Positions 1-29,718 of a DNA stretch of 29,718 bases are shown here, in pieces. Each line of letters begins with the position of its first letter. The stretch's first letter is position 1. Origin of the DNA: a virus (lineage: Duplodnaviria > Caudoviricetes); the IMG/VR virus record IMGVR_UViG_3300017719_000111, positions 1-29,718 of that record, one strand, 5' to 3'. Made by a program: the position numbers and the translations under genes. Below the pieces are notes generated by a model that saw only the letters and a program-made list of their open reading frames with translations, searched no databases and was not told the origin of the DNA.

Positions 1-597
1 ATACAAACGGTGCAAGTTCTTCCAGTGATTTTTATGAAAGTCCTCTACACTAACACGCATGCCTTGATCCAGTGCCATTTTAACACCTTCTCTAAATCCA
101 GCACGCCATGCTTGATGAGGTGTAGCATTATTCATAATAGTGCTAAAAGTTCCATTCATCTGGATGTATTGTGTGTCCCAGCAAAAATCTACTTGTGCAT
201 GTGGGTTATCATCTGGCGCATTTTCGTGTGTACGCATGTTTAATACATGTTGTTTAGGCCAGCACTTGATGCCGCCATTTCCGTATGTAAGATTATTGAT
301 AGTGTTAAGTGCAGTCCAACTAATAACTTTGTTTGTAAGATCAGTATCAGTATTAAAATCAATTGCCTGATTTAAAAAGTCTGCGTTTATAATGTTATCT
401 GCATCTACAGTAATAAATCGATCTGTTGTGGATCTTTCTGCCGCTGCTTTGTGTGCGCTATCACTGCCTTTGACTCCTTTAACATGTTCTGCCCAAGGAC
501 ATTTGCTGACTAAATCGGCAAAGTTTTTTTCTGCATTAGGCTCATCGTAGCTTAGATAAATTACATCATAGTCTACTACTCTAAAAGTATTAGTCAT
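1..597 (-). CDS. Putative GT-A-fold glycosyltransferase-like phage protein, partial (3' end runs off the window)
   Basis: Not in the ORF track; translated by hand. The ATG at 597-595 overlaps the upstream stop (ATGACTAA) and the frame stays open for 199 codons to base 1: MTNTFRVVDYDVIYLSYDEPNAEKNFADLVSKCPWAEHVKGVKGSDSAHKAAAERSTTDRFITVDADNII...YGNGGIKCWP...AWRAGFREGVKM. A hydrophobic strand precedes a DAD (DXD) motif. Confidence 0.75.
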   Translation of the reverse strand, partial: MTNTFRVVDYDVIYLSYDEPNAEKNFADLVSKCPWAEHVKGVKGSDSAHKAAAERSTTDRFITVDADNIINADFLNQAIDFNTDTDLTNKVISWTALNTINNLTYGNGGIKCWPKQHVLNMRTHENAPDDNPHAQVDFCWDTQYIQMNGTFSTIMNNATPHQAWRAGFREGVKMALDQGMRVSVEDFHKNHWKNLHRLY

Positions 598-1138
598 TTA
601 CTTCCTCATAATGATAAGTATCGAATCTACGCATAGTATATACGGAAACTTCTTCATTGTCAAACTCAAAATCATTTTCAAACGCAACTTCTAAACTATC
701 TGGAAATTGTAATAACTTATACAGCACGTTAGGATCATCTTTTTTTGTCACACTAAAATAATAATTTTGTAAATTAATTTCTATATTTTGTTGTTGTAAG
801 CCTTGTGCAAATTTTTCATCAACTTTAACTCTCCAACATTTCTTGATATTATCTTTAGTTATAATAATTTGATTTTCATCAGGTTTTTCTTTTGGAATTT
901 CATACAAAAATGCCCACATAAGTTTTTCATCGTCGACTTGTTTTAAACTTTTGATACTATATTTTTTCTCTAAAAAATCAAATTCAACTTTATGTTCTAA
1001 CAAACTTAATTTACCAGTGATAAAGTCTTCAACTTCTGCAAAGTCTAACTCTAAGTTTTTGAATCGTTCATCTGGCTTATTAGTGACTTTATAGATTGTT
1101 CCATCGTCTTCAAAACATACATATCTTTTTAGATTCAT
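590..1138 (-). CDS. Hypothetical protein (182 aa, acidic) within the glycosyltransferase cluster
   Basis: Tightly packed between the GT genes (1-bp gap upstream, 8-bp overlap downstream). No family recognised. Confidence 0.8.
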   Translation of the reverse strand: MNLKRYVCFEDDGTIYKVTNKPDERFKNLELDFAEVEDFITGKLSLLEHKVEFDFLEKKYSIKSLKQVDDEKLMWAFLYEIPKEKPDENQIIITKDNIKKCWRVKVDEKFAQGLQQQNIEINLQNYYFSVTKKDDPNVLYKLLQFPDSLEVAFENDFEFDNEEVSVYTMRRFDTYHYEEVND

Positions 1139-1139
1139 T

Positions 1140-1988
1140 TTATATTCCTAAATATTTTTCGTACTTTTTGACTAGTTTGTTTGTGACAAAATCTTTTTCA
1201 GTATAATGAAAAACACCTGATTGTTTATAATTTCCAATTTTTAATTGTAAATCATCGTCTATATATACGCCTAATCTATCTTGCCATCTATAAGCAAATT
1301 GCTCTTCCCAGTTTTGGCATCTTGATTTCATATGTACAAAACTCGGATACTTTGTTTTTTCATTAGTAATAAGATGCAAGTTATCCATAATCATTGTTGC
1401 TATAGATGCAGTAATGTCCATACTTGGATGTGGCAAATGCTTGAATTGATTATCAACTTGTTTGTAAAATTGTTGCCAATTATTTGTAATTATTTCTAAC
1501 CAGTTGTTAAATTCGTGTGCCATATCACTCTTTTTAAAATAGTGGCATCCATTGTATAAATTTGGCAGATTGTTTTTATAAAAACGTTGTCTATAAAAAG
1601 AGTCTGCAGGAATTGTTTCACCCCGGTAAGTTGTGACATTAGTTGTATAAAATAGATCGTATGTTTTTAAAAAATCAAACCATAAAGAAAGATCGTCTAA
1701 CACTAACATATCAGTATCAATTACTAATGTTTCTTTATAAGGAACTGCATGGTATATTTTCCATCTATTACTTACCTTCCAGTTTTCTTCTTGTGCATGA
1801 TCGCCCCATGGTATTTCAACTACATGATCAAAAACTTGTTTGTATTTTGTAGGAACAGGGTCGTTTGTAATTAAACATGTATTACTATTTTTATTAGTTG
1901 CTTTGATACTCATTGCTGCAAGGTAGGCTTGTCTAATATAATCAAAGTCACTATTTTGAGCAAGCATTGTAAAATTATTTGTTGTCAA
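1140..1988 (-). CDS. GT-A-fold glycosyltransferase (GT8-like), paralogue 2
   Basis: Contains YIRQAYLAAMSIK, PYKETLVIDTDMLV (DXD), LYNGCHYFKKS and a C-terminal FHYTEK. The TTG start is preceded by GGAGAG and its N-terminus aligns with that of the neighbouring paralogue. Confidence 0.8.
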   Translation of the reverse strand: MTTNNFTMLAQNSDFDYIRQAYLAAMSIKATNKNSNTCLITNDPVPTKYKQVFDHVVEIPWGDHAQEENWKVSNRWKIYHAVPYKETLVIDTDMLVLDDLSLWFDFLKTYDLFYTTNVTTYRGETIPADSFYRQRFYKNNLPNLYNGCHYFKKSDMAHEFNNWLEIITNNWQQFYKQVDNQFKHLPHPSMDITASIATMIMDNLHLITNEKTKYPSFVHMKSRCQNWEEQFAYRWQDRLGVYIDDDLQLKIGNYKQSGVFHYTEKDFVTNKLVKKYEKYLGI

Positions 1989-2808
1989 TAATTCTCTCCA
2001 AACTAAATTTATTCATAACATGACAATTACTGCCTTTTAAATTTACAGCGGTATACTCACCTAATCGGCTTTGTTTTTGTACTAGTATTTTTATTTCGTC
2101 ATCAACTATATCTATTAGTACATCTTTGTCTATACTAAAGAATTTAGTACCTGGTAATTTTCCTGCAAATTCGCCCGCTTGATAACCGTTCATAATATGG
2201 ATTGCAATACTAAATGCAAAATCATTCCTAAATACTGTTGTGCGAAACTGATACATGCTTCTATAATGCATATAGTTTTTTGATATATGTTTTATTAAAT
2301 CAAAGAAAATTTTTGTTTCGTTTGTCTTCTTAAAAAAGAATACAGTAGCCCAATAAAAATCTACACCAGTATCACTTATTCTTTTAAATTCACTGGTACC
2401 ATTATGTATACCAACGTGTGTTGCATCATTGTATAGCAAAAGATCTTTTTGCTGTACAAAACAATTATTTAAAATATCATTACTAATAATAAAATCAGTA
2501 TCCATTACAATTGTTTCATCGTAAGGAGATATATCATATGCATCAGCACGATTGTAATTATAAAATCTAGTTATTTTATTATACATATCGCCGTCGTGAT
2601 GTCTTTTGTTTGTAGTCTTATTTTCATTAATAGCATGTGCTATCACCTTATCAAAACAACTTTCTTGTTCGTCGGTGAGTTCAGTAGATGTCACAATGCT
2701 AGTAGGCAAATTCATATACTTGCGTATACGTTTAGCAAGGAAAACAGCTTGCTTTACATAATCTATTGATTTGTTATTGTTTGCAAATAACAGAACACCT
2801 TTTGTCAT
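1975..2808 (-). CDS. GT-A-fold glycosyltransferase (GT8-like), paralogue 1
   Basis: Contains DYVKQAVFLAKRI, SPYDETIVMDTDFII (DXD), YWATVFFFKK, FRNDFAFSIA and CHVMNK. It has an ATGA overlap with the upstream gene. Confidence 0.8.
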   Translation of the reverse strand: MTKGVLLFANNNKSIDYVKQAVFLAKRIRKYMNLPTSIVTSTELTDEQESCFDKVIAHAINENKTTNKRHHDGDMYNKITRFYNYNRADAYDISPYDETIVMDTDFIISNDILNNCFVQQKDLLLYNDATHVGIHNGTSEFKRISDTGVDFYWATVFFFKKTNETKIFFDLIKHISKNYMHYRSMYQFRTTVFRNDFAFSIAIHIMNGYQAGEFAGKLPGTKFFSIDKDVLIDIVDDEIKILVQKQSRLGEYTAVNLKGSNCHVMNKFSLERIIDNK

Positions 2809-3152
2809 AAACTAACAATACTTTCTACGCTTCTGCTTTTTTTCAATTTGTTGTATTCCATAAAATACTTGTTTGCAGCTTCAAAATATTTTGTATAAAT
2901 TTCATTTGCAAATGTTGATAAATTTTCAACTGTAATAGGCAACTCATTGTCATCAATTAAAATTGTACTTGATTGATCCATTGCAACTAGACTCTGACAA
3001 AAACTTACAAGTTCCTGTGTCACTGTAAATTGCCCACCATTGTAATAATATACAAGATTTTCTTTATACTGCGCAGCTAATAATCTTTTCTGATTGTTTA
3101 ACGTGACCATATAATTGCTGTGATCTAATGCTTTTTGTAGCCGTTCGTCCAT
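2805..3152 (-). CDS. Hypothetical protein (115 aa), possibly a DUF4376-like tail-fibre assembly protein
   Basis: Strong SD (AAGGAG). The pattern of a helix, YYNGGQF, ILIDDNELPITV and a C-terminal helix loosely recalls DUF4376 proteins found next to fibre genes. The family call is tentative. Confidence 0.7.
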   Translation of the reverse strand: MDERLQKALDHSNYMVTLNNQKRLLAAQYKENLVYYYNGGQFTVTQELVSFCQSLVAMDQSSTILIDDNELPITVENLSTFANEIYTKYFEAANKYFMEYNKLKKSRSVESIVSL

Positions 3153-3171
3153 ACTATACTCCTTTGCACTT

Positions 3172-3200
3172 AGTATATAGTATTTTTAAGATTTTGTCAA
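3172..3200 (-). promoter_or_regulatory. Sigma70-type promoter TTGACA-N17-TATACT upstream of the 115-aa gene and GT cluster
   Basis: The minus strand reads TTGACA AAATCTTAAAAATACTA TATACT AAGTGCAAAGGAGTATAGTATG. The -35 box is at 3200-3195, the -10 box at 3177-3172, with a 17-nt spacer. Confidence 0.8.
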
Positions 3201-4301
3201 TTAAAAGTCGGAATCTTTTGTTCCAGTTGGTGTATCTAATACAATGCCATTGTAAATAATGCCGCCGTATAAAAACGTACTAGAAGGTGTTTTTGTATAC
3301 ACAGTGCTAGTAATATTAGCTGTCACACTTTCGTCAGTTTTTGGACCAATAAAGCCGTCTGCTTGCTGGCCACCTGTTCCGGTATCGCCGTCATCTAATT
3401 CAATTTTAAATTCTAATTTAGTAGCTGTAGAAAATGCAGTATTTGTTCTAGCATAAATTCTAAAAAAGTTATCGTCATAAATTTGTTCTACTGGAATAAC
3501 ACCTGTATTACCGCCAGCTCTGCCGCCGCCTTGCTTTTCGAATATTTTAGTCCAAGTGCCACCGCTGCCAATATTTGCCGAACTATATCCTGTTCCACTT
3601 CCTGGTGCAATTGCTTCGCATATCCAATCAGTTTGATTACGTCTGCGAAAACGTACTGTTCCGGCATCACTTAATACTTGTGCCCAGTCCCAATCCTTTG
3701 TGTACGGAGTTCCTGTAGTACCACTAGTAGCAGAAGATTGAAATAAAATTTCTCCGCCTGCTGCAAGATAATAAATTAAATTAGCATGGCTTCCAAAATC
3801 AACACTGACTTCGTGTGTAATTATTTTTGCAGCATCGCTGCTACCGCCGAATGTAGTTGTTCTTGTACTCGATGTACTTGCACCGCCGGCTGTTTCTAAC
3901 GGTTCTAAACCTGTAAAGCTAGTTGCAGGAAATTCTGTAGAAGCATGATTAAATGCAAGCACACTATCAGCTAAGGTGTCTAAATCTAATTTATGCTGCC
4001 ATTCTACAAGATCAGTGTTTTCCATTTGATTTGCATCTATTACACCCGATAAAGAAGAAAAACAATGATTATATCCTGCTTGCAAATCAAGCCATAAATC
4101 TAAGTGCTGTTGTTCTGTGACAGTATCAGTTGCAGCTATTACAGGATCACTACTAAAATTTCTTCCGTATCCTCCAGATGTTGTAAGAGGAGTAGACAAA
4201 CTGCCGTAGTCATTGTATACAGAAACATTACCAAGCCTGCCTGCGACCAGCTCTCTTATTGCATTATAATGCGATGCTAATATCGGTGTTCCTACGGCCA
4301 T
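3201..4301 (-). CDS. Putative virion structural protein (366 aa), paralogue of 4350..5252
   Basis: Ser/Thr/Gly-rich. Shares I.A..YN at the N-terminus and H.(V/I).V.F.S......(Y/F)..AGG.I.F with its neighbour. SD is AGAGG. Confidence 0.75.
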   Translation of the reverse strand: MAVGTPILASHYNAIRELVAGRLGNVSVYNDYGSLSTPLTTSGGYGRNFSSDPVIAATDTVTEQQHLDLWLDLQAGYNHCFSSLSGVIDANQMENTDLVEWQHKLDLDTLADSVLAFNHASTEFPATSFTGLEPLETAGGASTSSTRTTTFGGSSDAAKIITHEVSVDFGSHANLIYYLAAGGEILFQSSATSGTTGTPYTKDWDWAQVLSDAGTVRFRRRNQTDWICEAIAPGSGTGYSSANIGSGGTWTKIFEKQGGGRAGGNTGVIPVEQIYDDNFFRIYARTNTAFSTATKLEFKIELDDGDTGTGGQQADGFIGPKTDESVTANITSTVYTKTPSSTFLYGGIIYNGIVLDTPTGTKDSDF

Positions 4302-4320
4302 TTAAAATCCTCTTTTAAAC

Positions 4321-4349
4321 ATTATAATGCTTAACTTTATATTTGTCAA
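4321..4349 (-). promoter_or_regulatory. Perfect sigma70 consensus promoter TTGACA-N17-TATAAT upstream of the 366-aa gene
   Basis: The minus strand reads TTGACA AATATAAAGTTAAGCAT TATAAT GTTTAAAAGAGGATTTTAAATG. The -35 box is at 4349-4344 and the -10 box at 4326-4321. Confidence 0.85.
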
Positions 4350-5252
4350 TCATAATTCGCTAGTTTTTGTATACGCTGGAGCATCATTTTGTACATATAT
4401 ACCAGTAGCTCGTATATGAGACACAGAACTTGTTAACACGCCTGCTACATATTCATCTGCACCGCCCGAGCCTACATCTTGATCATAAAATACAATGTTG
4501 AAAGTAATAGTGCTACTATTTTTTACTTTTGCTTGAACAAACCAATTATTTTCAGCGTATGTACCTGAAGGATCTCCTTCTTTTAGATACACTGTTTGAT
4601 AACTAGATGTTAAATCTTCATTGCCTATAGAATAACCTATTCCGGTTCCTGTTGATGTAGTTGCTGCTCTTCCAAACTGTACTTGTCCACTGTTAGTGAG
4701 CATTTCTTCCCATGCTTGATTTTTTGCTAAATTAGCGCCGCCAACATTAGTAATATCAATACTAGCATTAAATCTAATTTGGCCGCCGGCATTAAAAAAT
4801 GCTCTACGTTCGTTTGCACTAGAAAACCCTACATCAATTGTATGATTAATCTGTTGCGGAGTTGAAGTTCCGCCCCATTGACTAGCTGCACCATTCTTAA
4901 TACTGTTTACGCCTGCAGATTCAACAGAAGCCTGCGATGGATGTAAAATGAACCTGTCATCTTCTAAATCAGTTATTAAACTTTCAAATTCTGCATACAA
5001 TGCATCAGTTATTTCATCGTTGATAGTGACTGTAGCAATCCCCGAAGGAGTTGTCCCATTTATATGAACAAAAACTTTTTCAAAATCGTTATATAATGCA
5101 TTTATATGCTGTGCTTGTGCTTCGGTTAACACAGGCTCGGCATTAGAAGATACAGTTTGATTGTATCCCTTATCTAAATTTCCTACTCCTAAAAGGCCGG
5201 ATATACGTCCTTGTAATTCGTTATAACGTGCTGCTGAAATAATTTCTGGCAT
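4350..5252 (-). CDS. Putative virion structural protein (300 aa), paralogue of 3201..4301
   Basis: Contains IISAARYN and HTIDVGFSSANERRAFFNAGGQIRF. SD is AGGAG. It lies directly after the fibre genes. Confidence 0.75.
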   Translation of the reverse strand: MPEIISAARYNELQGRISGLLGVGNLDKGYNQTVSSNAEPVLTEAQAQHINALYNDFEKVFVHINGTTPSGIATVTINDEITDALYAEFESLITDLEDDRFILHPSQASVESAGVNSIKNGAASQWGGTSTPQQINHTIDVGFSSANERRAFFNAGGQIRFNASIDITNVGGANLAKNQAWEEMLTNSGQVQFGRAATTSTGTGIGYSIGNEDLTSSYQTVYLKEGDPSGTYAENNWFVQAKVKNSSTITFNIVFYDQDVGSGGADEYVAGVLTSSVSHIRATGIYVQNDAPAYTKTSEL

Positions 5253-5267
5253 ATAATTCTCCTAACA

Positions 5268-6788
5268 TTATGTTTTTATAACACACTCGACAAGTTTTTC
5301 GCCTTCGTCTACATTTGTTTCTAATGCTATTCCAACTAATGCTCTAGTTGCAGTTGTAGTACATACTCCATCTTCCCAAGCATATACAGGCTCGCCTTTT
5401 TTGATAGCACCTGTACATCTTACAGGAACACGACCTCTTAATGCAATTGCTTGTCCGTCGATATCCGAGTTCATCAAATAAGCCGGATTTTCACTTATTA
5501 CTCCAATTGCTAAATCACTACTTCTTGCAGGTCTAGTTTCATCGCTTACTTCCTGTTCTTCGCTAAACTTTTCAGGAGCAACTGCCATTGCAGTGCCAAC
5601 TGGATGTTCTTCTGAAGTTGTATATTTTTCTGCTAAATCTGCATACTGTGCTTTTGTAGCAGTACCATTAAAAAATCTTGCTGTTAAATCTGCGTTTGCA
5701 TCTCTTACTGCAACAGTATTTGCTGTTGCTGCTGTGCTTGCACTACGCCCTGTACCGGCAACGTCTACTGTAGAAGCTTTTGTTGCATTACCTACAAAAG
5801 TTGTTGAATGAATTTCTGCAAATCTTTCACTTGTACTACCAATGTTGTATACGCCATCTGCTTCAGGATACAATCCTTTAATCTCGCCGACTACATTTCT
5901 TACACTAACAATAGCTGTTGGATCTTCGCCTGCTTGACTTGCTTCAAATACAATTTTAGGTCCGCGGTTTTCAAACTTTGCTTGATTGTCTGATTCAATT
6001 TTAATTCTTAAGTCATTACTGTCACCTACTGTAAATCCAGCATCTCCAAAGGTAATAGAATCGGTTCTCTTTAAATAATCGCTGTAAAGTGTGCCGCCTA
6101 GTCTAAGCGCATCGTTTGCAGTTCCCCAAATAATAGGTTCATTGCTTGCACCACTGATATATTCATTTACATTATTTTGCGTTAAACCTGTTGCACTGTT
6201 TACTAGTGTCATACCACGTTTTATTAAACTAAACCCAGTTAAAGTAGGAACACCATCTGGCTGTAAATTAGCAAGTGTAAATTCTTCATTAGATATAACA
6301 TAAACTGCTACATCATTAATTATTGCAACAATAATTGTTTTTTCGTTATCGGCATTATCTAATACATTAACACTAAGCATTTGCGTTGTGCCACTACCAG
6401 CACTCTGAGGACCAACAAGGATAAATTCACCAGCAGCAGTTTTGCCGTATAACTGATTACTTGTACTACTCCACCATAAGTCGCCTTCGTCTAAACCAAT
6501 TGGTTCACTTGGGCTAACTTCTGTGCCGCCTGCTGTTTTCCAGGCACTGCCTGTGTAAAATTTTAATTTTGTAGTGCTTGCATCGTACCAAACTTGTCCG
6601 TCGATTGCTTTCACTGGTGCAGAAGTGCCACTAAAATTTTCTAGTAAATGAAGATAGTTTTCGTTTTGAACTTCACCATATCCACTATAATTTCTTCCCA
6701 CAAATTTAATATCAGTGGTTTGATCAATTGTACCATCTTCTACAACAGTAAGTTGTGTACCGTTAAATCTATTTACAATATATGCCAT
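5268..6788 (-). CDS. Tail fibre/appendage protein with a C-terminal peptidase G2-like intramolecular chaperone/autocleavage domain
   Basis: Has the shared fibre N-terminus (GRNYSGYGEVQNENYLHLLENFS...GQVWYD). The C-terminus AQYADLAEKY...IGVISENPAYLMN...IALRGRVPVRCTGAIKKG matches the D(Y/L)AE...GVIS..P...L.GRVPV pattern of Peptidase_G2 (phi29 gp12-type). Confidence 0.8.
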   Translation of the reverse strand: MAYIVNRFNGTQLTVVEDGTIDQTTDIKFVGRNYSGYGEVQNENYLHLLENFSGTSAPVKAIDGQVWYDASTTKLKFYTGSAWKTAGGTEVSPSEPIGLDEGDLWWSSTSNQLYGKTAAGEFILVGPQSAGSGTTQMLSVNVLDNADNEKTIIVAIINDVAVYVISNEEFTLANLQPDGVPTLTGFSLIKRGMTLVNSATGLTQNNVNEYISGASNEPIIWGTANDALRLGGTLYSDYLKRTDSITFGDAGFTVGDSNDLRIKIESDNQAKFENRGPKIVFEASQAGEDPTAIVSVRNVVGEIKGLYPEADGVYNIGSTSERFAEIHSTTFVGNATKASTVDVAGTGRSASTAATANTVAVRDANADLTARFFNGTATKAQYADLAEKYTTSEEHPVGTAMAVAPEKFSEEQEVSDETRPARSSDLAIGVISENPAYLMNSDIDGQAIALRGRVPVRCTGAIKKGEPVYAWEDGVCTTTATRALVGIALETNVDEGEKLVECVIKT

Positions 6789-6810
6789 TATTGTTGTTCC
6801 TCGCTTATGT

Positions 6811-6818
6811 TATTTATC
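6811..6818 (-). promoter_or_regulatory. T4-late-like promoter box (GATAAATA)
   Basis: The minus strand reads CGATAAATAACATAAGCGAGGAACAACAATAATG in the 31-bp gap before the 506-aa fibre. The TAAATA core recurs in other gaps. Confidence 0.55.
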
Positions 6819-6819
6819 G

Positions 6820-11329: not shown

Positions 11330-11353
11330 TGTTTTTGTTCCGTTCCTATAGTG

Positions 11354-11361
11354 TATTTATC
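11354..11361 (-). promoter_or_regulatory. T4-late-like promoter box (GATAAATA-CACTATA) overlapping the stop codon of the giant gene
   Basis: The minus strand reads CGA TAA ATACACTATAGGAACGGAACAAAAACAATG. Confidence 0.6.
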
Positions 11362-23300: not shown

Positions 23301-25081
23301 TCGCCAATACTATTTTCGTCTTTGTCAAACAAATCAAATCTAGGTGACTGATTTAATCCAGTTTTATCTTGTGCTTTGTTCCACACAATGCCATCATACC
23401 AGTACATGCAGCCAGCATTTACATCGCCATCTAAAATTAGAATAGTTTCGTTTTCTACAGGCATTGTATCTGTAGTTTCTGTTAAACTAATTTGTAAATT
23501 ATTATTATGTGTTATAAAATTTACTTCATATATTTTGCCATTTACTAGGCTATCAGGATCTGCTGTAAATAATACACGCATACCGTCTGCCAAATCAATG
23601 CCGTCAACGTTGTATCCAACACTACCTTCGATTGTACTAAAAACATCTTGTGTAAATGTGTCTACTAAGTCTACCGCGGCTTTTGCACTATTACCATGAT
23701 TGAACAAACGTAAATTTGGTTCAAATTCAATAATAGGTCTACGTGCTCTTAGGTCTTCAAAAATCTCAATAGGCTGATTATTAATTTCTGCACTTTTTTC
23801 AATTACACTACGATGTGTCCATCTATTGTATCTACTCCATGGATTTTTACTTTTGTCTCTACGGTTAATACAAACATAGTCCTTTGTGCCAGCAAAACTT
23901 TTAGCATCGCCAAATGGTACTCTATCAAACGGATTAATATCAAAAGGAACTTGTGTATCTTGTGTAAAAATTGCAGGAACTTGCAGATCTTTTACTGCAA
24001 CTAATTCGATACTTTCTCCAACACCTTCAACATAGTACAAACCTTGTGCATAAGATGCAGGTGTGACATTTCCTTGGAAATAAATTTTCATACCATTTGA
24101 AAAGTCCCAGCCATCTGATGTTTTGTAAGTTTTCTTTCCTAATATTTCTTCTACTACATTTATTTCAGTAGATTCTTCTATATCAAATAAGTTTAGGTTG
24201 CCGCTGACATTTATGTCGTTTTGACTTATATAGTACAATTCAGCTGGAGCGTTTGTAGGTACAGTAAATTTTAATGTACCTTTTTCAATAAATCCATTAT
24301 CTATATAATCATCTCTAAATTTTACAGTATCGTCGTATTCTTCTGTAATTTCAACACCATCTAAATAAAGATTTTCTGCATATACTGCACTATCTGCATA
24401 AGGTACATTTTTTAATCTACTAAGAGCAATACCAAAAGGATGTCCTTTTGTATCAACTTCAAAGATGTAAGTTTGTCCTCTGTAAAGTGTTAGCTTTTTA
24501 TTACGTGTGACTCCATCTGGAGAGAATACAAATGCTGGATCCCCGCCATCAAATTCAACTGTGACTTTGTATGTGCTTACAACTTCAACGCCATTTCCTC
24601 TTACTGGAACTTCTTGGGCACCATTAGGCAACCAATAATACTCACGGAAATTTGTAAATTTATCAAAATCAATATGTGGGTTCCACGCATAAAATTCTTG
24701 TGCAAAAAGTTTATCATGGTTTTTAGTTGTGCTGTTAAATGCTTCGATCTGTCCTAGCAAATCAATATAATCAGCATTGAACTCAATATTTCCAATATTA
24801 TCTTCAATAATTGTGTATGGCTCTAATTGATAATCTTCACGTTGTTTACTTACATCAGAAATATAGTTGTCATCAACAATTGCTGCTTTAGCTTCTCTGC
24901 TACCAACAAATCCATTTAATTTTTCAACTACACCGGGTGATGTTAATTGGTCTAATGTACTACCAATAAATTTCTTGTTTGTATCAGTGCGAAAGTATCT
25001 TGGTAATAATGAAGAAGTAGTTCTTTTACTATCATTACGTCCTGGAACAGGATATTCGTTTTGATTGTCTTCGTATGCCAT
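11357..25081 (-). CDS. Giant multidomain virion/baseplate protein (4574 aa), positional equivalent of the T4 gp7 wedge initiator
   Basis: An uninterrupted 13.7-kb ORF coupled to gp6 by TAATG. It contains FG-GAP-like propeller repeats (FGSSVSITPNGQYLYVGAP, FGYSISLNSVGNKLAIGAP), four CBM5/12-like W....Y..G..V.....Y modules, I..V.I...G.(G/N)Y repeats typical of T4-like marine phage wedge proteins, and C-terminal G.....F.L / V...G......DY beta-sandwich repeats. Confidence 0.8.
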   Translation of the reverse strand: MAYEDNQNEYPVPGRNDSKRTTSSLLPRYFRTDTNKKFIGSTLDQLTSPGVVEKLNGFVGSREAKAAIVDDNYISDVSKQREDYQLEPYTIIEDNIGNIEFNADYIDLLGQIEAFNSTTKNHDKLFAQEFYAWNPHIDFDKFTNFREYYWLPNGAQEVPVRGNGVEVVSTYKVTVEFDGGDPAFVFSPDGVTRNKKLTLYRGQTYIFEVDTKGHPFGIALSRLKNVPYADSAVYAENLYLDGVEITEEYDDTVKFRDDYIDNGFIEKGTLKFTVPTNAPAELYYISQNDINVSGNLNLFDIEESTEINVVEEILGKKTYKTSDGWDFSNGMKIYFQGNVTPASYAQGLYYVEGVGESIELVAVKDLQVPAIFTQDTQVPFDINPFDRVPFGDAKSFAGTKDYVCINRRDKSKNPWSRYNRWTHRSVIEKSAEINNQPIEIFEDLRARRPIIEFEPNLRLFNHGNSAKAAVDLVDTFTQDVFSTIEGSVGYNVDGIDLADGMRVLFTADPDSLVNGKIYEVNFITHNNNLQISLTETTDTMPVENETILILDGDVNAGCMYWYDGIVWNKAQDKTGLNQSPRFDLFDKDENSIGDSNVYDSTEFVGNRIFNYRVGEGANDPELGFPLTYKNFVNIGDIVFDFSLLEKKYNYKVDNEFVKISSDTLFLKKYTNEKDSFVNAWKKATIKSQQFVVRKFTGTEFTNNLPIDVYNNSADLQDLKVKVYVNSLFQTPDVDYVLTNNNHFKNIVFTDDLEFEDIVVVKTHSNADKNANGYYEVPYNLERNPLNSNITEFTLGEVNDHVEGLISELNGFNGLQPGVSNLRDLGDVAGFGRKFVQHSGPINLAMYNLVSKDANVIKAVRFASNEYQKFKRQFIQIATDDFYEGTAKEHVDYVFNTLNEDKVQTMNFYSTDMAGTGGSVEIEYEVFDNRLKTYALSKVFQKNVISNTAVYIYINDEQLVHNTDYTFTDTGFVSIIKDLNNGDIIKIQEYANTEGSFIPPTPTKIGLYPAYKPEKFLDTTYQVQYDENGNEIRGTGPLNVIRGHDGSMMVAYDDYRDDLILELEKRIYNNLKITYDTDIFDIHDVVGGLSRDTKVSNSDINNITITDFTKWLEVAKINDYTDNSFVRLDESFTYNYSQTVNLNNQNVPGFWRGVYIEAYDTDRPHTHPWEMLGFSSQPTWWESVYGPAPYTSNNLILWTDIKNGTVREPGKPVSIRSKYVRSKLLSHIPVNENGQLLSPLESGYVQNFSYAVQRNIPFKFGDHAPEETAWRRSSDYPFALLVAMILLRPAHTIGIGYDRSRISRDKAGNYVYTDTDKRITTKDIVFPKINGNISSGLINFVSEYVSLNNEFTYSKYISDITNIKNKLGFKLAGFANKEKLKLVLDSKTPLNQGNVFVPFENYNLEFRSSAPQKVVTYSGVIVEKTTKGFKISGYDTTQPYFSYYEAIESSNDPNINVGGISESFAIWSENKTYIAGKIVEFEDVYYRTKVNHTSTDTFDDTKYTKLPKLPEVGGVNAKFRKRYKDTPSQLDYGTILVDIQSVVDFLLGYEKHMIDEGFVFDYFNKQTEAIENWKLAAKEFMFWTSQNWASSSIITLSPSANNVLFSKEYYVVDDVFDSFYNYQILNQNGKKLNRSFFNVYRDNINNFQLTSTEDGIFLLKLPLIQKEHVVFIDNTTVFNDTIYSLSTGYRQQRLKVVGYRTDEWNGSLNIPGFLYDDARITEWKSYKDYTVGELIKFKEFYYAAQFTHSGTENFDFDLWNRLPSKPENQLQPNWDYRANQFADFYDLDTDNFDAEQQRLAQHLIGYQKRGYLSNIIQDDVSQYKFYQGFIQDKGTANSITKLFDKLGSANKDSIELFEEWAIRVGQYGALKSFDEVEFKLDEKQFRIEPQTMQLVNQVDQTRTDLVYQFPKSDVLIAPANYDTGFLPTQNAVNEYTKTAGYVKLDQINFLAKTIEDILTVDIDSVDIGNYVWVTKDLNTWAMYRHMISDISITKVESTELGFKMYFNKPIEFDEDSVIGVNNIHPDVNGFWLVTNVQRNIVYNTDGTISQPNIEIETDNPISESVIDVEDSTLGIVSEFCIRRVSEPSESNLILQAYDLNANDRIWIDDIGDGVSAVYDRNVIRNKLQDITAPEENSNEYGRSVSASFNNTIMAVGTPDIDDGRVYIYTRSSDAIPFTVKQTLQPQPQYHSKGDFGSSVSITPNGQYLYVGAPTASNVKSRYKGALDPLQEYQQADIVSSKGVLWQALRTVTVESSTINLESQDWQRVNMITADPSATNLGYNDQGVVYIYKKLIDNSFELIDIICSSAPGENEKFGLGIKAVSPGDFDHSLYVRSLADNGRVYIINNLGVDNIEEYEYNIDPSYRGEWQTIAKYIENEIVYYDGELYQANQTVFAGNTFDTDSWNLLDTFVDYTGYITSDLTSTTDLYNEDSSGFGLATDIGVTYDISANGEVIALSGILAGDEYRVAIYRKENNRYVFDQNIDGPVDDEYFGYSISLNSVGNKLAIGAPNSKDKGILNGKVYVYKLANQQFELDQQLYAPDGEKNNRFGVYVVLDDNRLAVTSENGDTNFALEFDNGETIFDNAATNIVDTVEDNNQVYMFENISNKLIYSEKLYSSTDISGAKNAYGYLNRNHLYVVAPAQDLTNILADSTNNKGIIQDYRSDIGKTAWTINSSVDPFVDLSKIKGVWLYDTKTKDLISYIDYIDPIQGRIAGPAEQELSYKLYYDPAVYNTGSTNTGDKDLWSTNYVGKLWWNLTTVRWYNPYTGDIQYKTNNWNQLIPGYDVDIYEWVESNYLPSEWDSIADTTEGLSEGISGLSLYGDETYTIQNSYDPITGVAASRYYFWVKSKTTLPNTYGRKISALDVENLIRDPAGQGYRFVNLFDSKNFALHNVRNLIKDKDTVLHIDYYTTEDRDDNIHSEYHLLTEGLASSKPNSDLVAKWVDSLVGYNEQNIQLPDTRVSIARRFGILNEPNQSMFVNRKEALKQIIERVNGILNEYVVVDEFDISPLLQADPAPSKFSNLWDTEIDSESLLRFIGTAKISQAVLTPTIVDGRITEVSITNSGRGYIDSNYTTGSTRHGPTVTIEGTGTDAELKTYINNLGQIVDVEIVNSGKNYLDNTVLIVRPFSVLVKNDSDIGGFWAVYNWISSTGEWFRNQIQDYDVSLYWDYKDWYAEGYNAETAINFIIPGAYALEATPDRIGSVVKIETIGTGGWLLLEKIDNQQNVDYTVNYKSIGRQNGTICLSSQLYQNESVGYDKQIYDTSFYDREPSEEIKIILKAIEENLFVDQLEVEWNKLFFSSVRYAISEQVDVDWIFKSSFVTAKHNVGELQQKITYQNDNLPNYQEYINEVKPFSAKVREYISAYEKVDPTQTNVTDFDLPPSYDSELGKVVPSAIQFVNNQLVNVPTSVLTYPNRNWYDNVGFEIKEFVIFDGGSGYTNTANVTVSGGGGPTLEGSAYLGGNTINFIEVDTVGAKYFNTPTVTINGSLNEDGREAIVYAIIGNNLVRNTHMRMKFDRVTGSYLFTTLDETETFLGNGGSTDFNLKWPLSTRSADLTITVGGVEQLISDYTSSNELDKTRSFERYKGKISFTTAPANNAEVVINYKKSTDLLTAADRINFFYNPTTGMPGKDLAQLMDGIDYSGVQMDSIDFGESLGWDLQGFGVDFDSYDTANEDEIIVLDGSTQTVSLSTELEAGVVYNVYLNNVRIDDPSYPLPGTNPNAKMVSPVGDGITKNVFLDSDVITTQMDDVVIVRKSTSDGSFTPESTAFDVSLRGGTFENTSALGIDPAEITVDGDGFVTETTSKGPEEQVPGQVLDTLDMTIYNRVSQGQGIIAVRNYITDGNTLNWNFDLFPQTEKTIIVTIDGEVIPNSDLVVDYENKYIALGDSTVIEAGKNLSILSIGTNGVDIIDSDNIISTGNSRTFELPIRFTTEQSTFVTLNGVKQEPATQYGYDTNDAGFGVIEFPTAPSANTVIGYTVYSANINQFSEMVIDKTMTVDGDNRVHRFDNDVALPFVKKPYSHNILVQRSKGSKFLNPGYRKSYIMTIQRDYDIDAWQFEDTTLVNSSDVVIYLNGEVLAETLWNYDPLNGRVEILSNNIGLPGDLLEIFIIRDAEYFFFNTIAVVKGGSALAQIPQGTDVAFALTDDSTVVNARVESFKYSGENDAIIELQGYVRDLFDLKSTDSTPAMIAGDDSTQNLEIEEVRLQETDVLCLLETPEDWETVDIYTFSNHDINELERNSYDVVWNTNQAPEGTQEYIDKNLLSTGYVKLQKPAISANYVWVFKNGIILVPQKDYKIVDKKDGVQMYEKVDPNDTIDVLQFAAPVSKPKFGYRIFKDMLNRFHYKRLNKDNEYELQQPLNYYDQTIQLKDATGIQSPNRAIGLPGVVYIDKERIEYFAVDNNQLRQIRRGTLGTGIKETYAVNTKVIGQGIEENIPYKDEIYKTKYVGDSSTKQFLLDWIPTSVNEFDVYLGGIKLRKDVITSFDPTKDQDSPEGDITIAPEYTMETIIFGEATVTAIYLADYLNPPADGTLVEVVRKTGRVWSEQGKTIADSENQICKFITDKTISLPR

Positions 25082-28000
25082 TAGTAATCATTTCCTTCGG
25101 TAATAATATTTGTATTTGTGACTGAGCTTTGTATTCCTACATTCAACACTTCGTCGCTAGTTATAACTGTACCTGTAGCTTTTAAACGTGCGGCAGTAAT
25201 ACTATCAATAACTTCTACATCAGAAACATTTGCTGCATTTACAAATATTTCATCATTTTCGCAAACTATTTCGTACAAACTACCAAACACTTGTGTTTCG
25301 CTTTTTGGTACTAAAACTATACTTGCTGCATCTGGAGAAACCTGTGTCATAACATATGCTGCTAATTCACTAAAATAAAATGTTTCACCAAAGTCCCAAT
25401 TTTCTAAACTAAAATATTCATTTATTGCATCAACAACTCGAGACTTTATGTCATTATCATTTACAACTCTGCCTGAGTTTTTAACTATTTTTATAGTTGC
25501 TTGTAAATCTTCATCTGCTAAACTACCAAACAACGGTTTGTATTTTACAGGATGATATATTAGTTCATCGGAAATACTTTTAATTTTTTTAATATCTTGT
25601 CCGTAGCTTAAAAATAAACTATCACTGCTAGGAGGCAACGGTTTTTCATCTAAATTGCCAATAAGATATTTTCTAAATTCTGTATCATATGTTTTTTCTA
25701 AAAGATACAAATCAATAATGTTGCTGCTGCTAGGATCTATTCTACGATTTTCTGCTGCTGCATGTCTGTAATTAAATCGTAAACTATCTCTGCCTTTGTA
25801 AGCACGCCAATTTATATCTAATTCCAATCTTGTCATTGTCGAATTAATTTTTTTAAACACATCTGTGCTGCTTATATAAAAAACTTCATTGCCGGTGTAA
25901 TTGCTAAATGCTCCAACAGCAGCTTCTGTATTTTTTACAATAATGTTATTTGTTTCTGCATTTGCATATTCAAATGTTTCAACATCGTTCATTAGCACTT
26001 TTTTTGCAAATATATATTTTGTATCTGGCAAATAATCAGGTGCAACAATTTGTGTAAACACATCTGGATCGTCGATCACACCGTCGCCGTCTGTGTCAAC
26101 AAATCCTACTTCTAATTTTTTACTGTCAACATAACCTGCAACTGATCTATAAGAAGAAATAACTTGGAATTTATAATCTTGTGTAAAATTTGTTAAACTA
26201 TCAGGAACATTATTATTACTTAATACATCAATTGTATCAGTCACAATTTTTCCAGTTTTGCTATCATATATTCTATCATTGCCATCAAAGTAGAAACGTA
26301 TTTGTTCATCGCTTTCAAACACATATCTCAATCCACGATGAGTCACAGTATAAGTTTCTCCGTTGGTTTCAAACAAGAAAATCCAACTACTGTCTTGATT
26401 TGAGCCTGTAGCATCACCTGCTCTACCTGTGCTAAATGCACTAGTTTTATCTAAGTTTGTTGATGTAATAACTTTCCAATTTGAAGTTTCTACATCATAA
26501 CGCAATCCAAAAGTTTTATAACTAAATGCTTGATCCACCATTTGAGATAATGTATCTGCTACAATGCTTAAATTTAATACTGAAATAATCTCAGATAATT
26601 GCGCACCTGACGGAATATTATCATTTAAAATAACAGGTCCTAAATCGCTATCAATGTCTTGTATTGTACCATTTTCAAAAACACTTACAACTTTTGTCCA
26701 AATATAAGTTTTGTCTCCTAGCTTAGTAGGATTGCCTACAACCAATTTATTGTTTTTATCAAAATACTGACCAGTAGGAGCAATAAATTTAATTAAACTA
26801 CCAGGTGCTACAAATCTCATTGTGTTAGCTGTAAAACTACTAACTGCAACAGGAATGTTAAATTGATCTTGAAATATACCTGAACTTTGATTGGTATCAT
26901 TAGTAGTTGGGTTCCAAGTAAAATTCAAGTCTTCTACACTAATATTTCTATCAAAGTTTTTGTAATAAAAGTTTTTTGTTTGTGTATGTTTAACAATTTC
27001 TAAAACTTTTGAATTAATCACTGCTTCGATGTCAGTTCTTGTTGTAAATCCAAAACTAAATTTCTTTGCTAAATCTTCACTGTAAACGCTACCGTCATCA
27101 CCAAACATTAATGTGTTGCTGTACTTGCCAGTTGCATCACGTAAATCATAATAGCGACTTATTCCACTACTAGTTCTATTAATGCTTTTTGTTTTAATAA
27201 TCTGTTGACTTACTCCTAAAGGACCGATATTATAATCTTCGCCTGTAATAAGTCTATTTTGTGTGTAAAACGTACTAGGTGCATTTGTTTTAATACTTTC
27301 ATTTGTTTCACTAGTATCTGCATTAGATACAGGAACTTGTAAATCTAAAACTAAATTTAGCGTTTCTGTTGTACCGCTTTTACTTAGGTAAGGTATTTGT
27401 ATTTGTATTCCTACTAAGTCTGCAGGATTAATTTTATATTGTTCATTAGCACTGGTTCTGTAATAAACTTTAAAACTTCCTTTTGGCAATGTGCCAAAAA
27501 CACCATCACTGAAAATTAAACTTATACGATCGCTAATTCTACTGAGTACACCATATATATCTCTGACGCCTTTTTCAACACTGTTGTACACAATATTGTT
27601 GCCCTCGATATTGCTAACTTTTGTCCAAATATCTTGCTCGGTGCCGTTGCTGTCTAGTTTGTATAACCAAACGTCAGATTCATTTATATTATCTGTATCA
27701 ATATTTACAGTTGTGTTTGGAACAGGATTATCTATAGTAAAAACATTGTTTTTTAGAGTACCTTGTCTAAAGTGTAAAAAGAATCCACTGTTTGCACTGC
27801 CTGCACCTTGTCCGCTGTCTCTGTATAAAAACGCTAATTTGTTTCCTGGAAACGGTTCTTCTTCATAAATGAAATTATCTCCAGTGTCAATACCTGCACT
27901 AGTAATTTCAAATTTTCTACTTTTGCTGTCAACTGATTTAGTAAAACTGAATACTGGAATATCAGTGTTTGTTCCATTAAATCTATATTGTTCAGTTATA

Positions 28001-28545
28001 ATGCCGTCAACTGTAGATTTTTTTACAGGACGTCCAAAACGTGAATTTGCAGGTAGAGCAGAATTCATTATTTTAATAAATTGCTCATACCAGTCACTGT
28101 TTGTTGCATCGTTCCAAAGTACAGTTTGTCCACTAAGATTGTTATTATTTGCATCAAACACATCTTCGGTTGTACTTATACTATCAATTTTTAGTAAGCC
28201 ATTTGCAGTTGTATTTCTACTTGCATTATAGCTAATCAATCTTGCCAAACGGAGAATGCTTTCTCTACGTTCTGCTGTTTCGATATAATTTTCTCTAGCA
28301 TTTAGGTCTGTGCGGAAGGCTAGGTTTTGACCTAAAAATGCAATCAAATCAATCAGTGCAAGATATTCTGAACTTTCAATATAATCGTTGTAGTCTTCAG
28401 GATAATTTTCTCTAATATAAGAAATCATTGTTCTACGTAGATTGTCAAAGTCATAACTTTGAAAATCAGCGTATTTAAAACTTTGATATATTGCTTTCCA
28501 ATCTTCTGCTAATAGAAGTCGATTTTGCCTATCTGTCGTTGACAT
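25081..28545 (-). CDS. gp6: Baseplate wedge subunit, T4 gp6-like (enlarged, 1154 aa)
   Basis: The N-terminus DFDNLRRTMISYIR...LIDLIAFLGQNLAFRTDLNARENYIETAERRESILRLARLISY, plus IFSDGVFGTLP, ETNESIKTNAPSTFYTQNRLITGEDY and the C-terminal INEYFSLENWDFGETFYFSEL, are gp6/baseplate-J family hallmarks. It follows gp25. SD is GAGG. Confidence 0.9.
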   Translation of the reverse strand: MSTTDRQNRLLLAEDWKAIYQSFKYADFQSYDFDNLRRTMISYIRENYPEDYNDYIESSEYLALIDLIAFLGQNLAFRTDLNARENYIETAERRESILRLARLISYNASRNTTANGLLKIDSISTTEDVFDANNNNLSGQTVLWNDATNSDWYEQFIKIMNSALPANSRFGRPVKKSTVDGIITEQYRFNGTNTDIPVFSFTKSVDSKSRKFEITSAGIDTGDNFIYEEEPFPGNKLAFLYRDSGQGAGSANSGFFLHFRQGTLKNNVFTIDNPVPNTTVNIDTDNINESDVWLYKLDSNGTEQDIWTKVSNIEGNNIVYNSVEKGVRDIYGVLSRISDRISLIFSDGVFGTLPKGSFKVYYRTSANEQYKINPADLVGIQIQIPYLSKSGTTETLNLVLDLQVPVSNADTSETNESIKTNAPSTFYTQNRLITGEDYNIGPLGVSQQIIKTKSINRTSSGISRYYDLRDATGKYSNTLMFGDDGSVYSEDLAKKFSFGFTTRTDIEAVINSKVLEIVKHTQTKNFYYKNFDRNISVEDLNFTWNPTTNDTNQSSGIFQDQFNIPVAVSSFTANTMRFVAPGSLIKFIAPTGQYFDKNNKLVVGNPTKLGDKTYIWTKVVSVFENGTIQDIDSDLGPVILNDNIPSGAQLSEIISVLNLSIVADTLSQMVDQAFSYKTFGLRYDVETSNWKVITSTNLDKTSAFSTGRAGDATGSNQDSSWIFLFETNGETYTVTHRGLRYVFESDEQIRFYFDGNDRIYDSKTGKIVTDTIDVLSNNNVPDSLTNFTQDYKFQVISSYRSVAGYVDSKKLEVGFVDTDGDGVIDDPDVFTQIVAPDYLPDTKYIFAKKVLMNDVETFEYANAETNNIIVKNTEAAVGAFSNYTGNEVFYISSTDVFKKINSTMTRLELDINWRAYKGRDSLRFNYRHAAAENRRIDPSSSNIIDLYLLEKTYDTEFRKYLIGNLDEKPLPPSSDSLFLSYGQDIKKIKSISDELIYHPVKYKPLFGSLADEDLQATIKIVKNSGRVVNDNDIKSRVVDAINEYFSLENWDFGETFYFSELAAYVMTQVSPDAASIVLVPKSETQVFGSLYEIVCENDEIFVNAANVSDVEVIDSITAARLKATGTVITSDEVLNVGIQSSVTNTNIITEGNDY

Positions 28546-28568
28546 ATGCCATTCCTCACTTTACAGTG

Positions 28569-28601
28569 TATTTACCTGAAGTGATAATGTGCGTATTTAA
28601 A
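28569..28601 (-). promoter_or_regulatory. Two tandem TAAATAC late-type boxes upstream of gp6
   Basis: The minus strand reads TT TAA ATACGC (overlapping the gp25 stop, 28601-28594) and then GGTAAATACACTGTAAAGTGAGGAATGGCATATG (28576-28569). Confidence 0.55.
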
Positions 28602-29034
28602 GAAGGCCGTTGTTTTGGTCAAATTTTATACGCATTGTTTCGCTAATGCTGTAAGGAAGGTATGTAATGCTGCAATCTACTTGCAACCCGCTTTCGTAGG
28701 TATCAACTGTGACAGAATTTACATTTATACGTGGATCAAAATTGATTACTTCGGTAATATCTTTGATTATTAGCTCTTTTAAATCTTCAGTAAATGGCTC
28801 AAATAATACGTCCCAGATTACAGTGCCAAATGTAGGGTTTTCTAGTTTTTCGCCTTTGCGAATATGAAAATGGTTTATAACATCTTGTTTGATTATTTCT
28901 AAATCAAATAGATTAAATCCACGTGGATTAGCTACAGTGCTGATACCCCTGTATTGCTTAGAAGTCACTGGTGCTTCTTCTCCAGGAGAAGATATTGTCA
29001 CGTTCTTATAAAGTGGTTTTTCATTTGTAGCCAT
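28597..29034 (-). CDS. gp25: Baseplate wedge/sheath-initiator protein, gp25 (GPW_gp25) family
   Basis: DLEIIKQDVINHFHIRKGEKLENPTFGTVIWDVLFEP...INFDPRINVNSVTV is the canonical gp25 signature (GE....P.FG.....LFEP...(E/D)PR). Confidence 0.92.
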   Translation of the reverse strand: MATNEKPLYKNVTISSPGEEAPVTSKQYRGISTVANPRGFNLFDLEIIKQDVINHFHIRKGEKLENPTFGTVIWDVLFEPFTEDLKELIIKDITEVINFDPRINVNSVTVDTYESGLQVDCSITYLPYSISETMRIKFDQNNGLL

Positions 29035-29038
29035 ACTG

Positions 29039-29046
29039 TATTTATA
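29039..29046 (-). promoter_or_regulatory. Exact T4 late promoter consensus TATAAATA, 4 nt before the gp25 ATG
   Basis: The minus strand reads GTA TAA ATACAGT ATG. The box overlaps the upstream stop codon. Confidence 0.7.
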
Positions 29047-29718
29047 CTAAAACTTTTTCATAAAGATCGTTTGCCTTTGGTGTAATACTTACAAGTGTGC
29101 CATTTACAAATTTTTGTACTGGTTGTATAATGATTGGTCCTTGAGTAGTAAAGCCGTACAAATCTCTTTTCTTTACTAGTTTTGTACCAAACTTTTTAGC
29201 TGTTTTTTTAGCAGCATTAGCTACATTTGCAAACGTTTTATCTCCAGTTGTTCTAAATGTTTTCTTGTGAAGTGAATTTGCTGCACTAGCAATTGCATTT
29301 GCTTGTGTCGCAGGGTTTTCTTTAAATCTTATGTTATTTGCAACTTGTCTGCCTACATCTTTTACAACATTTGGCCTGTTCAGTGCTTTGCCAATTAAAT
29401 TTGCTCCAACTTGAGCTGATGCTTCGCTTATAACACTTCTTAATCCTACAGGCAATCCGTCTACTGCACTTGATAAGTTTTTTGTAAAGTCGCCTATTCC
29501 TTTTGTAAACCCATCAAACACTGGGCCAACACCTGGTATGCTACTAATTGCTGAACCTAAACCACTTGCTAATTTGCCTGCTGCGTCTCCTAATGCATCT
29601 CCTAGTCCGCCTAATGCTTTTCCTATTGCACCGTCGATTGCGCCTAATGCACTGCCAAGTGCGCCAGTTAACCCTGTAGAACTTAATAAGTTTTGCATCG
29701 TGCTAGGCAAACTTCCTA
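29042..29718 (-). CDS. Gly/Ala/Leu-rich then Lys-rich protein, probably 5'-truncated (C-terminal part of a tail/baseplate-region protein)
   Basis: The frame stays open upstream of the track's TTG start (29710) to the window edge. It has an amphipathic ALG-repeat segment followed by a basic region, and lies immediately upstream of gp25. Confidence 0.65.
   Translation of the reverse strand, partial: GSLPSTMQNLLSSTGLTGALGSALGAIDGAIGKALGGLGDALGDAAGKLASGLGSAISSIPGVGPVFDGFTKGIGDFTKNLSSAVDGLPVGLRSVISEASAQVGANLIGKALNRPNVVKDVGRQVANNIRFKENPATQANAIASAANSLHKKTFRTTGDKTFANVANAAKKTAKKFGTKLVKKRDLYGFTTQGPIIIQPVQKFVNGTLVSITPKANDLYEKVLV

What the first reader, a model, noticed from the sequence alone, without database searches (positions are those of the whole stretch)
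1..29718. Near-total avoidance of GTAAC/GTTAC (GTWAC), with GTCAC/GTGAC used instead
Seen, by manual scan (a few sites could have been missed): only two GTWAC sites, at 8713-8717 and 8953-8957. A rough base-composition estimate at about one-third GC predicts on the order of 60. GTSAC occurs dozens of times: Val-Thr pairs are repeatedly encoded GTC-ACN despite the AT-rich codon bias (e.g. near 1083, 1633, 6900, 6911, 13673, 14626, 24063). Neighbouring words (GTAAT, GTAAA, GTTAA, GTTAT, GTAC, GATC, GANTC) are common. Inference: strong selection against a single 5-bp motif, such as the target of a host restriction-modification, BREX-like or other defence system, of a phage-encoded nuclease that degrades host DNA, or of a DNA-binding protein. 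The motif could serve as a fingerprint for finding the host.
Basis: partly seen in the sequence, partly recalled or inferred. Interest (0 to 1): 0.8.

Follow-up and report, generated by a model that had tools for sequence, protein, structure and literature searches.

The report
Jumbo phage purged of GTWAC sites
This marine giant phage has recoded away almost every GTAAC/GTTAC word, mostly by silent codon changes, while its close relatives keep them; the likely cause is a DNA-cutting enzyme and methylase pair predicted to read that word, likely carried by the phage itself, as in two cultured cyanophages that show the same loss.

Summary
Confirmed: 2 GTWAC in 29.7 kb against 47-69 expected under three nulls. 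The loss holds in all reading frames and is mostly synonymous (Val-Thr: 41 GTS, 2 GTW). The window is the tail module of a ~350-kb marine jumbo myovirus. The purge is recent and lineage-specific: 67 related loci have 2282 sites against 2272 expected. Over ~94 kb of this phage, core genes keep 7 of 125 expected sites and a variable island 19 of 47. No methylase or GTWAC nuclease lies in the part seen; ~250 kb is unseen. New lead: an NPPY methylase plus Tsp45I-like nuclease pair occurs in a GTWAC-poor bacterium and in cyanophages P-SSM4 and S-H38, which are GTWAC-poor (9/44, 8/43). Two control cyanophages are not (91/77, 83/79). Best reading: the phage carries such a pair (0.5); rival: the host does (0.33). 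The specificity is inferred, not assayed.

The parts
1..29718 (.). GTWAC-purged region: 2 sites against 47-69 expected; 51 GTSAC against 24
8713..8717 (+). Surviving GTTAC (Val-Thr GTA-ACA on the coding strand), at the extreme C-terminus of the tail collar fibre gene
8953..8957 (+). Surviving GTTAC (Val-Thr GTA-ACT on the coding strand), C-terminal part of the same fibre gene
8706..10727 (-). Tail collar fibre protein, 673 aa; holds both survivors (2 against 6.8 expected)
   Evidence: (PF07484)
11357..25081 (-). Giant virion structural protein, 4574 aa; no GTWAC; 18 positions that are GTWAC in at least 4 of 11 relatives are all lost
   Evidence: (phrog_10938)
25081..28545 (-). Baseplate wedge subunit, 1154 aa; no GTWAC; 9 positions shared by at least 4 of 11 relatives are all lost; used as the phylogenetic marker
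   Evidence: (phrog_10646)
28597..29034 (-). gp25-like baseplate wedge protein; no GTWAC
5268..8706 (-). Two fibre-like virion proteins (506 and 628 aa); no GTWAC
590..5252 (-). Six ORFs without a Pfam or PHROG match; no GTWAC

Best explanation
This phage lineage has lost nearly all its GTWAC sites, mostly by silent changes, and likely did so after acquiring its own restriction-modification pair (an NPPY adenine methylase and a Tsp45I-like nuclease predicted to read GTWAC) that would lie in the unseen part of its genome. Shown: the purge, its synonymous route, its restriction to one terminal branch, and the uneven survival of sites. Inferred: the nuclease would cut unmethylated GTWAC in host or competitor DNA; the methylase would protect phage DNA, but imperfectly during fast replication, so each site carries a small cost and is removed over time. 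Genes imported later from unpurged relatives keep their sites because the methylase would cover them.
For: (1) The purge is derived: the phage sits on a 0.05 branch inside an unpurged clade (SH-aLRT 100); 67 related loci have 2282/2272; 0 of 25 and 0 of 30 sites of two 83%-identical relatives are kept, against about 40% for 5-mers in general. (2) A bacterial genome with GTWAC 71/131 and normal GTSAC 101/95 carries an NPPY methylase next to an ORF with weak Tsp45I-like similarity. (3) That methylase hits 7 of 50,697 phage records, all cyanophages. In the 2 carriers examined it abuts an annotated restriction endonuclease, and GTWAC is 9/44 (P-SSM4; GTSAC 63/46, the same signature as here) and 8/43 (S-H38); 2 control cyanophages give 91/77 and 83/79. 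(4) 26 sites survive in 94 kb, and the site-rich island block is near-identical in 4 of 4 marine runs, which fits protection by a methylase. (5) An unpurged relative, 74% identical over window 1-3000, shares a neighbouring gene at 98%, which suggests recent co-infection of one host that did not purge both phages.
Against: No such pair was found in the ~97 kb of this phage that was reached; about 250 kb is unseen. The carrier test is small (2 carriers, 2 controls, 30-35 kb each), and S-H38 also lacks GTSAC (11/47), so the family's specificity varies. The bacterial nuclease resembles Tsp45I only at E 0.1 and did not hit the cyanophage nucleases; the link runs through the methylases (27-30% identity). 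Every relative purges words of its own (AATT, GCWGC, CATG), including a 335-kb relative with no detected methylase, so purges in this clade can arise without a phage methylase. L073 is short (5 sites against 7 expected), so point 5 is weak.
Confidence: 0.5

Rival explanations
1. The host (likely an alphaproteobacterium) carries an orthodox Type II system for GTWAC, possibly of the same NPPY plus Tsp45I-like family, and the phage removed the sites to escape it. The clade's predicted 7-deazaguanine DNA would block most other enzymes but not this one.
For: This is the standard cause of site elimination (PMC6286503). Relatives purge different Type II-like words. The family occurs in bacteria. GTWAC m6A exists in 3 marine archaeal genomes. 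The phage has folE and queE; a relative has the full DpdA3/DpdL set. Recalled and unverified: MaeIII (GTNAC) still cuts 7-deaza-G DNA.
Against: At least 26 fixed sites would still be cut; a gene-sharing relative is unpurged; no host or host enzyme was identified; 0 of 6 cultured DpdL-pathway phages purge GTWAC.
Confidence: 0.33
2. The enzyme reads GTNAC (MaeIII-like), and the phage's own modification (7-deazaguanine, or a GTSAC methylase) shields GTSAC, so only GTWAC needs purging.
For: S-H38 lacks both words. Marine viruses with GTSAC-like methylases or TSAC methylation exist. DpdA of phage iggy modifies GA, and GTGAC contains GA.
Against: GA-containing words are not uniformly spared (GGATCC 0.16-0.5, TCGA 0.38 in one relative). 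The clade's DpdA is DpdA3-like, a type reported to replace all G. P-SSM4 shows the same W-only loss.
Confidence: 0.07
3. A bare phage nuclease without a methylase, a DNA-binding protein or another defence (ADP-ribosylation, BREX-like) makes GTWAC costly.
For: It would also give synonymous loss in all frames; most of the genome is unseen.
Against: A bare nuclease would not tolerate 26 sites. The nucleases seen (SegE-like GIY-YIG, Smr, gp46/47) also occur in unpurged relatives. The palindromic W/S split is typical of Type IIP enzymes (established knowledge).
Confidence: 0.1

Closest known systems
Restriction-site avoidance in lytic dsDNA phages (Rusinov et al. 2018, PMC6286503; abstract and Results read)
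   Same: Near-elimination of a short palindrome by synonymous change; core O/E 0.06 falls in their 'eliminated' class (<0.1).
   Different: No characterised GTWAC restriction enzyme was found in print, and the driver may be the phage's own pair rather than the host's.
Tsp45I family (GTSAC; Pfam PF06300) and MaeIII (GTNAC; recalled)
   Same: Same GT-N-AC frame. Canonical PF06300 carriers deplete GTSAC and not GTWAC (5 of 5 strong Bacteroidota carriers, O/E 0.11-0.54), showing that W and S can be told apart.
   Different: The candidate GTWAC family pairs a distant nuclease with an NPPY methylase rather than the DPPF-type methylase seen beside PF06300.
Methylase plus 'restriction endonuclease II' pair of cyanophages P-SSM4 (PSSM4_046/047) and S-H38
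   Same: T4-like marine phages with GTWAC O/E about 0.2; P-SSM4 also has raised GTSAC.
   Different: The pair is seen there and not yet in this phage; its specificity is only inferred from composition.
GTWAC m6A in Marine Group II archaea (Hiraoka et al. 2022, PMC8919816; passages and supplement rows read)
   Same: Shows that a natural GTWAC-specific adenine methylase exists in seawater; the motif had no REBASE match.
   Different: No gene was assigned, and the phage's genes point to a bacterial host.
7-deazaguanine pathway DpdA3/DpdL of phiST and PA5oct (Cui et al. 2023, PMC10516641)
   Same: folE and queE in this phage; folE, queE, queD, dpdL and dpdA3 homologues in a 335-kb relative.
   Different: Shared with unpurged relatives, so it is context and not the cause.

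Membership tests
Restriction-site avoidance | Site far below compositional expectation | tested here: met
Restriction-site avoidance | Loss by synonymous change in all frames, not codon bias | tested here: met
   (18 of 23 and 22 of 30 sites with unchanged residues)
Restriction-site avoidance | Site is a palindrome of Type II form | tested here: met
   GTWAC; both forms lost; GTTAAC, GTATAC and GTAC are spared
Restriction-site avoidance | Host encodes the cognate nuclease | not testable with these tools
   host unknown; only an alphaproteobacterial hint
Phage-encoded Type II restriction-modification pair | Methylase and nuclease genes in this phage | tested here: inconclusive
   none in ~97 of ~350 kb
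Phage-encoded Type II restriction-modification pair | Carriers of the pair deplete GTWAC and non-carriers do not | tested here: met
   2 of 2 cyanophage carriers and 1 bacterial carrier; 0 of 2 control cyanophages and 0 of 4 control bacteria (small samples)
Phage-encoded Type II restriction-modification pair | Enzyme cuts or methylates GTWAC | not testable with these tools
   needs an assay or a methylome
Canonical Tsp45I family (PF06300) | Carriers deplete GTWAC | tested here: not met
   6 of 8 carriers deplete GTSAC only, 1 distant carrier neither clearly; the one GTWAC-poor carrier also has the NPPY pair
7-deazaguanine-modified phages (DpdA3/DpdL) | folE, queD, queE, dpdL and dpdA3 present | tested here: inconclusive
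   folE and queE in this phage; full set only in the relative
Thymine-shield pattern of earlier scan notes | Survivors flanked by T on both strands | tested here: not met
   5 of 25 against 100 of 440 in relatives, p 1.0

The most novel reading that the evidence does not exclude
The recurring GTWAC purge of aquatic T4-like and jumbo phages is the self-avoidance footprint of a mobile, phage-carried restriction-modification cassette with an undescribed GTWAC specificity, of which P-SSM4 gp46/gp47 is a cultured example. Phages use it against host or rival DNA, and the decay of the word dates both the cassette's arrival and later gene imports.
Probability: 0.4. Interest if true: 0.75.

Novelty: new variant of a known kind. 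Interest (0 to 1): 0.58.

Why it matters
Site avoidance is well known, but no enzyme for GTWAC was found in the papers searched, although the purge recurs in many aquatic phages and GTWAC methylation is reported in marine archaea. This work names a concrete candidate pair in a cultured phage (P-SSM4), so the specificity can be tested with one cloning and digestion experiment. If the phage carries the pair, a missing motif is not a host fingerprint but a marker of the phage's own weapon. The core/island contrast also gives a simple way to tell old genes from recent imports.

Tried and rejected
Codon or short-word bias: rejected. T-flank (thymine) shield: rejected here. GA-shield by deazaguanine: not supported. 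Deazaguanine pathway as cause: queE is shared by unpurged relatives, and 0 of 6 cultured DpdL-pathway phages purge GTWAC in 40-50 kb. Marine Group II archaeal host: considered because 3 such genomes methylate GTWAC; disfavoured by ALA synthase (TIGR01821, above cut-off) in the relative and by MetK, whose best plasmid hits are alphaproteobacterial in 18 of 20 listed rows (51-54% identity, weak). The relative's binning in a Marinimicrobia genome was not taken as host evidence. Canonical Tsp45I: GTSAC, not GTWAC (one search had shifted labels and is superseded). The candidate nuclease was not found in 401 Bacteroidota genomes at E 1e-10. MANTIS preprint: passages read, no GTAAC/GTTAC. Seela and Roling 1992 is not held, and searches did not confirm the recalled MaeIII result.
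Full report
Observation. The window has two GTWAC sites, at 8713 and 8953. Expectation is 47 by a maximal-order Markov model (z -7.9, the lowest of all 5-mers), 64 by 300 synonymous-codon shuffles (minimum 50) and 69 by 100 dinucleotide shuffles. GTSAC is doubled (51 against 24). The loss holds in all three frames: Val before Thr is GTS in 41 of 43 cases against 73 of 654 elsewhere; AAC or TAC never follows an nGT codon (0 of 60); TTA is never used between G and C (0 of 11). Neighbouring words such as GTAC, GTTAAC and GTATAC are near expectation.

What the DNA is. The 14 main ORFs, all on the minus strand, form a myovirus tail module: fibres, a 4574-aa virion protein, a baseplate wedge and gp25. 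Cultured kin (PA5oct, Atu_ph07 and others) are only 33-37% identical. CheckV rates a 36.8-kb overlapping contig at 10% complete, and a relative's contig is 335 kb, so the genome is about 350 kb. Fourteen runs hold at least 95% of the sampled words, 13 labelled marine or seawater and one a viral metagenome. ALA synthase in the relative and MetK in a 98%-identical contig hint weakly at an alphaproteobacterial host.

The purge is recent and lineage-specific. Of 70 related loci, only the three with 100% baseplate identity lack the word; the other 67 have 2282 sites against 2272 expected, the lowest being 4 of 8. A quick IQ-TREE tree of 42 baseplate proteins (partial and duplicate rows left out) puts the phage on a 0.05 branch nested among unpurged relatives with SH-aLRT 100. 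None of 25 and none of 30 sites of two 83%-identical relatives is kept, against about 40% for all 5-mers. Residues are unchanged at 18 of 23 and 22 of 30 coding sites, and all 27 positions that are GTWAC in at least 4 of 11 relatives are lost.

Extent. Walking with exact patterns gave about 94 kb of this phage, with 26 sites against 143. In 48 core and structural genes there are 7 sites against 125, and in 29 genes of a radical-SAM island 19 against 47; Val-Thr GTW:GTS is 7:72 in the core, 11:12 in the island, and 40:5, 99:9 and 137:5 in three relatives (core against island p 1e-4 to 2e-6). Three adjacent radical-SAM genes are unpurged (9 against 7.9). That block is near-identical in 4 of 4 runs laid, so the sites are tolerated. 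I infer that these genes arrived after the purge. Survivors are not T-flanked (5 of 25 against 100 of 440).

Context. Relatives purge other words: AATT 141/567, GCWGC 35/413 with GCSGC raised, CATG about 0.3; CGCG, GTGCAC and GCTAGC are low across most of the clade. The phage has folE and queE. The 335-kb relative also has queD and homologues of the PA5oct proteins that Cui et al. 2023 list as DpdA3 and DpdL (sections 15-16, passages and one supplement row read). This set replaces all G by 7-deazaguanine in phiST, so the same is predicted here. It is shared with unpurged kin, and 0 of 6 cultured DpdL-pathway phages purge GTWAC, so it is not the cause. No PF01555 or PF02086 methylase was found on the phage contigs of five relatives, and no DNA methylase among 74 proteins of this phage.

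The enzyme. Literature searches found GTWAC as a methylation motif only in Hiraoka et al. 2022: m6A in three Marine Group II archaeal genomes, without a REBASE match. An earlier scan note predicted GTWAC for an NPPY methylase with a Tsp45I-like partner, which led me to test that family. Of 8 PF06300 carriers sampled at 40-152 kb, 6 deplete GTSAC only, one distant carrier depletes neither clearly, and one (G093) has GTWAC 71/131 with normal GTSAC; four relatives of G093 without PF06300 are normal in 13-44 kb each. It hits 7 of 50,697 phage records, all cyanophages. In P-SSM4 and S-H38 it abuts an annotated restriction endonuclease, and 30 kb around it have GTWAC 9/44 and 8/43, with GTSAC 63/46 and 11/47. 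P-SSM2 and S-SM1, which were not among the hits, have 91/77 and 83/79 in 35 kb. No homologue was found in any sequence held of this phage or its relatives.

Mechanism. Shown: purge, silent route, single branch, core/island contrast, and the co-occurrence of the pair with GTWAC loss in three other genomes. Inferred: this phage acquired such a pair; the nuclease attacks unmethylated host or rival DNA; methylation lags behind replication, so sites cost a little each and are lost, while imports survive under the methylase (0.5). The main rival is ordinary escape from a host enzyme of that specificity (0.33); Rusinov et al. 2018 (abstract and Results read) show that this is the usual cause, and the unmethylated 335-kb relative purges GCWGC without a detected methylase. 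Against it stand the tolerated sites and an unpurged relative sharing one gene at 98%, which is weak because that contig is short. A GTNAC enzyme with shielded GTSAC (0.07) and other agents (0.1) are less likely. That MaeIII cuts 7-deaza-G DNA is recalled and could not be checked.

Novelty. Site avoidance is known, and the scan noted GTWAC purges in seven other phage windows. What is added is a dated, lineage-specific case and a testable candidate enzyme pair in cultured phages. I did not search the literature or REBASE for the specificity of the P-SSM4 pair, so it may already be described. Verdict: real, a new variant of a known kind, interest 0.58.

Noticed in passing
L245:14279-15924 (P-SSM4) and L246:14313-15879 (S-H38): Cyanophage nuclease plus NPPY methylase pair; carriers are GTWAC-poor (S-H38 GTNAC-poor), two control cyanophages are not.
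   Followed up: partly
L113:13301-20000, L114:44-949, L110:12027-12530; L155/L156: folE, queE, queD, dpdL and dpdA3-like genes; the DpdA3-like protein has over 7400 homologues, the best 120 at 79-86% identity, so 7-deazaguanine DNA may be common in marine jumbo phages.
   Followed up: partly
L131-L134; L107-L123; L124-L127; L078-L079: Each relative purges its own word: AATT (0.25), GCWGC (0.08), CATG (0.30), TTAA (0.70).
   Followed up: partly
L092:2415-16830 and L080:150-14980, just beyond window position 1: About 29-kb island of radical-SAM, P450, AMP-binding, hydroxylase and methyltransferase genes next to the tail fibres; partly unpurged.
   Followed up: partly
L080:12679-14052 against L073 and L075: A radical-SAM gene is 98% and 92% identical to relatives that are about 74% identical over window 1-3000, a sign of recent recombination.
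   Followed up: partly
window, whole: TAAATA is depleted (34/66) in this phage and its relatives, probably because it is the late-promoter core (recalled T4-like motif).
   Followed up: no
L248 (S-SM1): GTAC is absent from 35 kb of S-SM1, though normal or mildly low in the other phages examined.
   Followed up: no
L176-L185 (G093): This bacterium strongly avoids AGNCT (0.09-0.14) besides GTWAC and carries several restriction-modification pairs.
   Followed up: no
L107-L110: The 335-kb relative carries ALA synthase, pseudoazurin, PstS, IscU, PEP carboxykinase and GMP reductase, yet is binned in a Marinimicrobia genome.
   Followed up: partly
window 11357-25081: The 4574-aa virion protein has FG-GAP and carbohydrate-binding (CBM5/12) repeats.
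   Followed up: no
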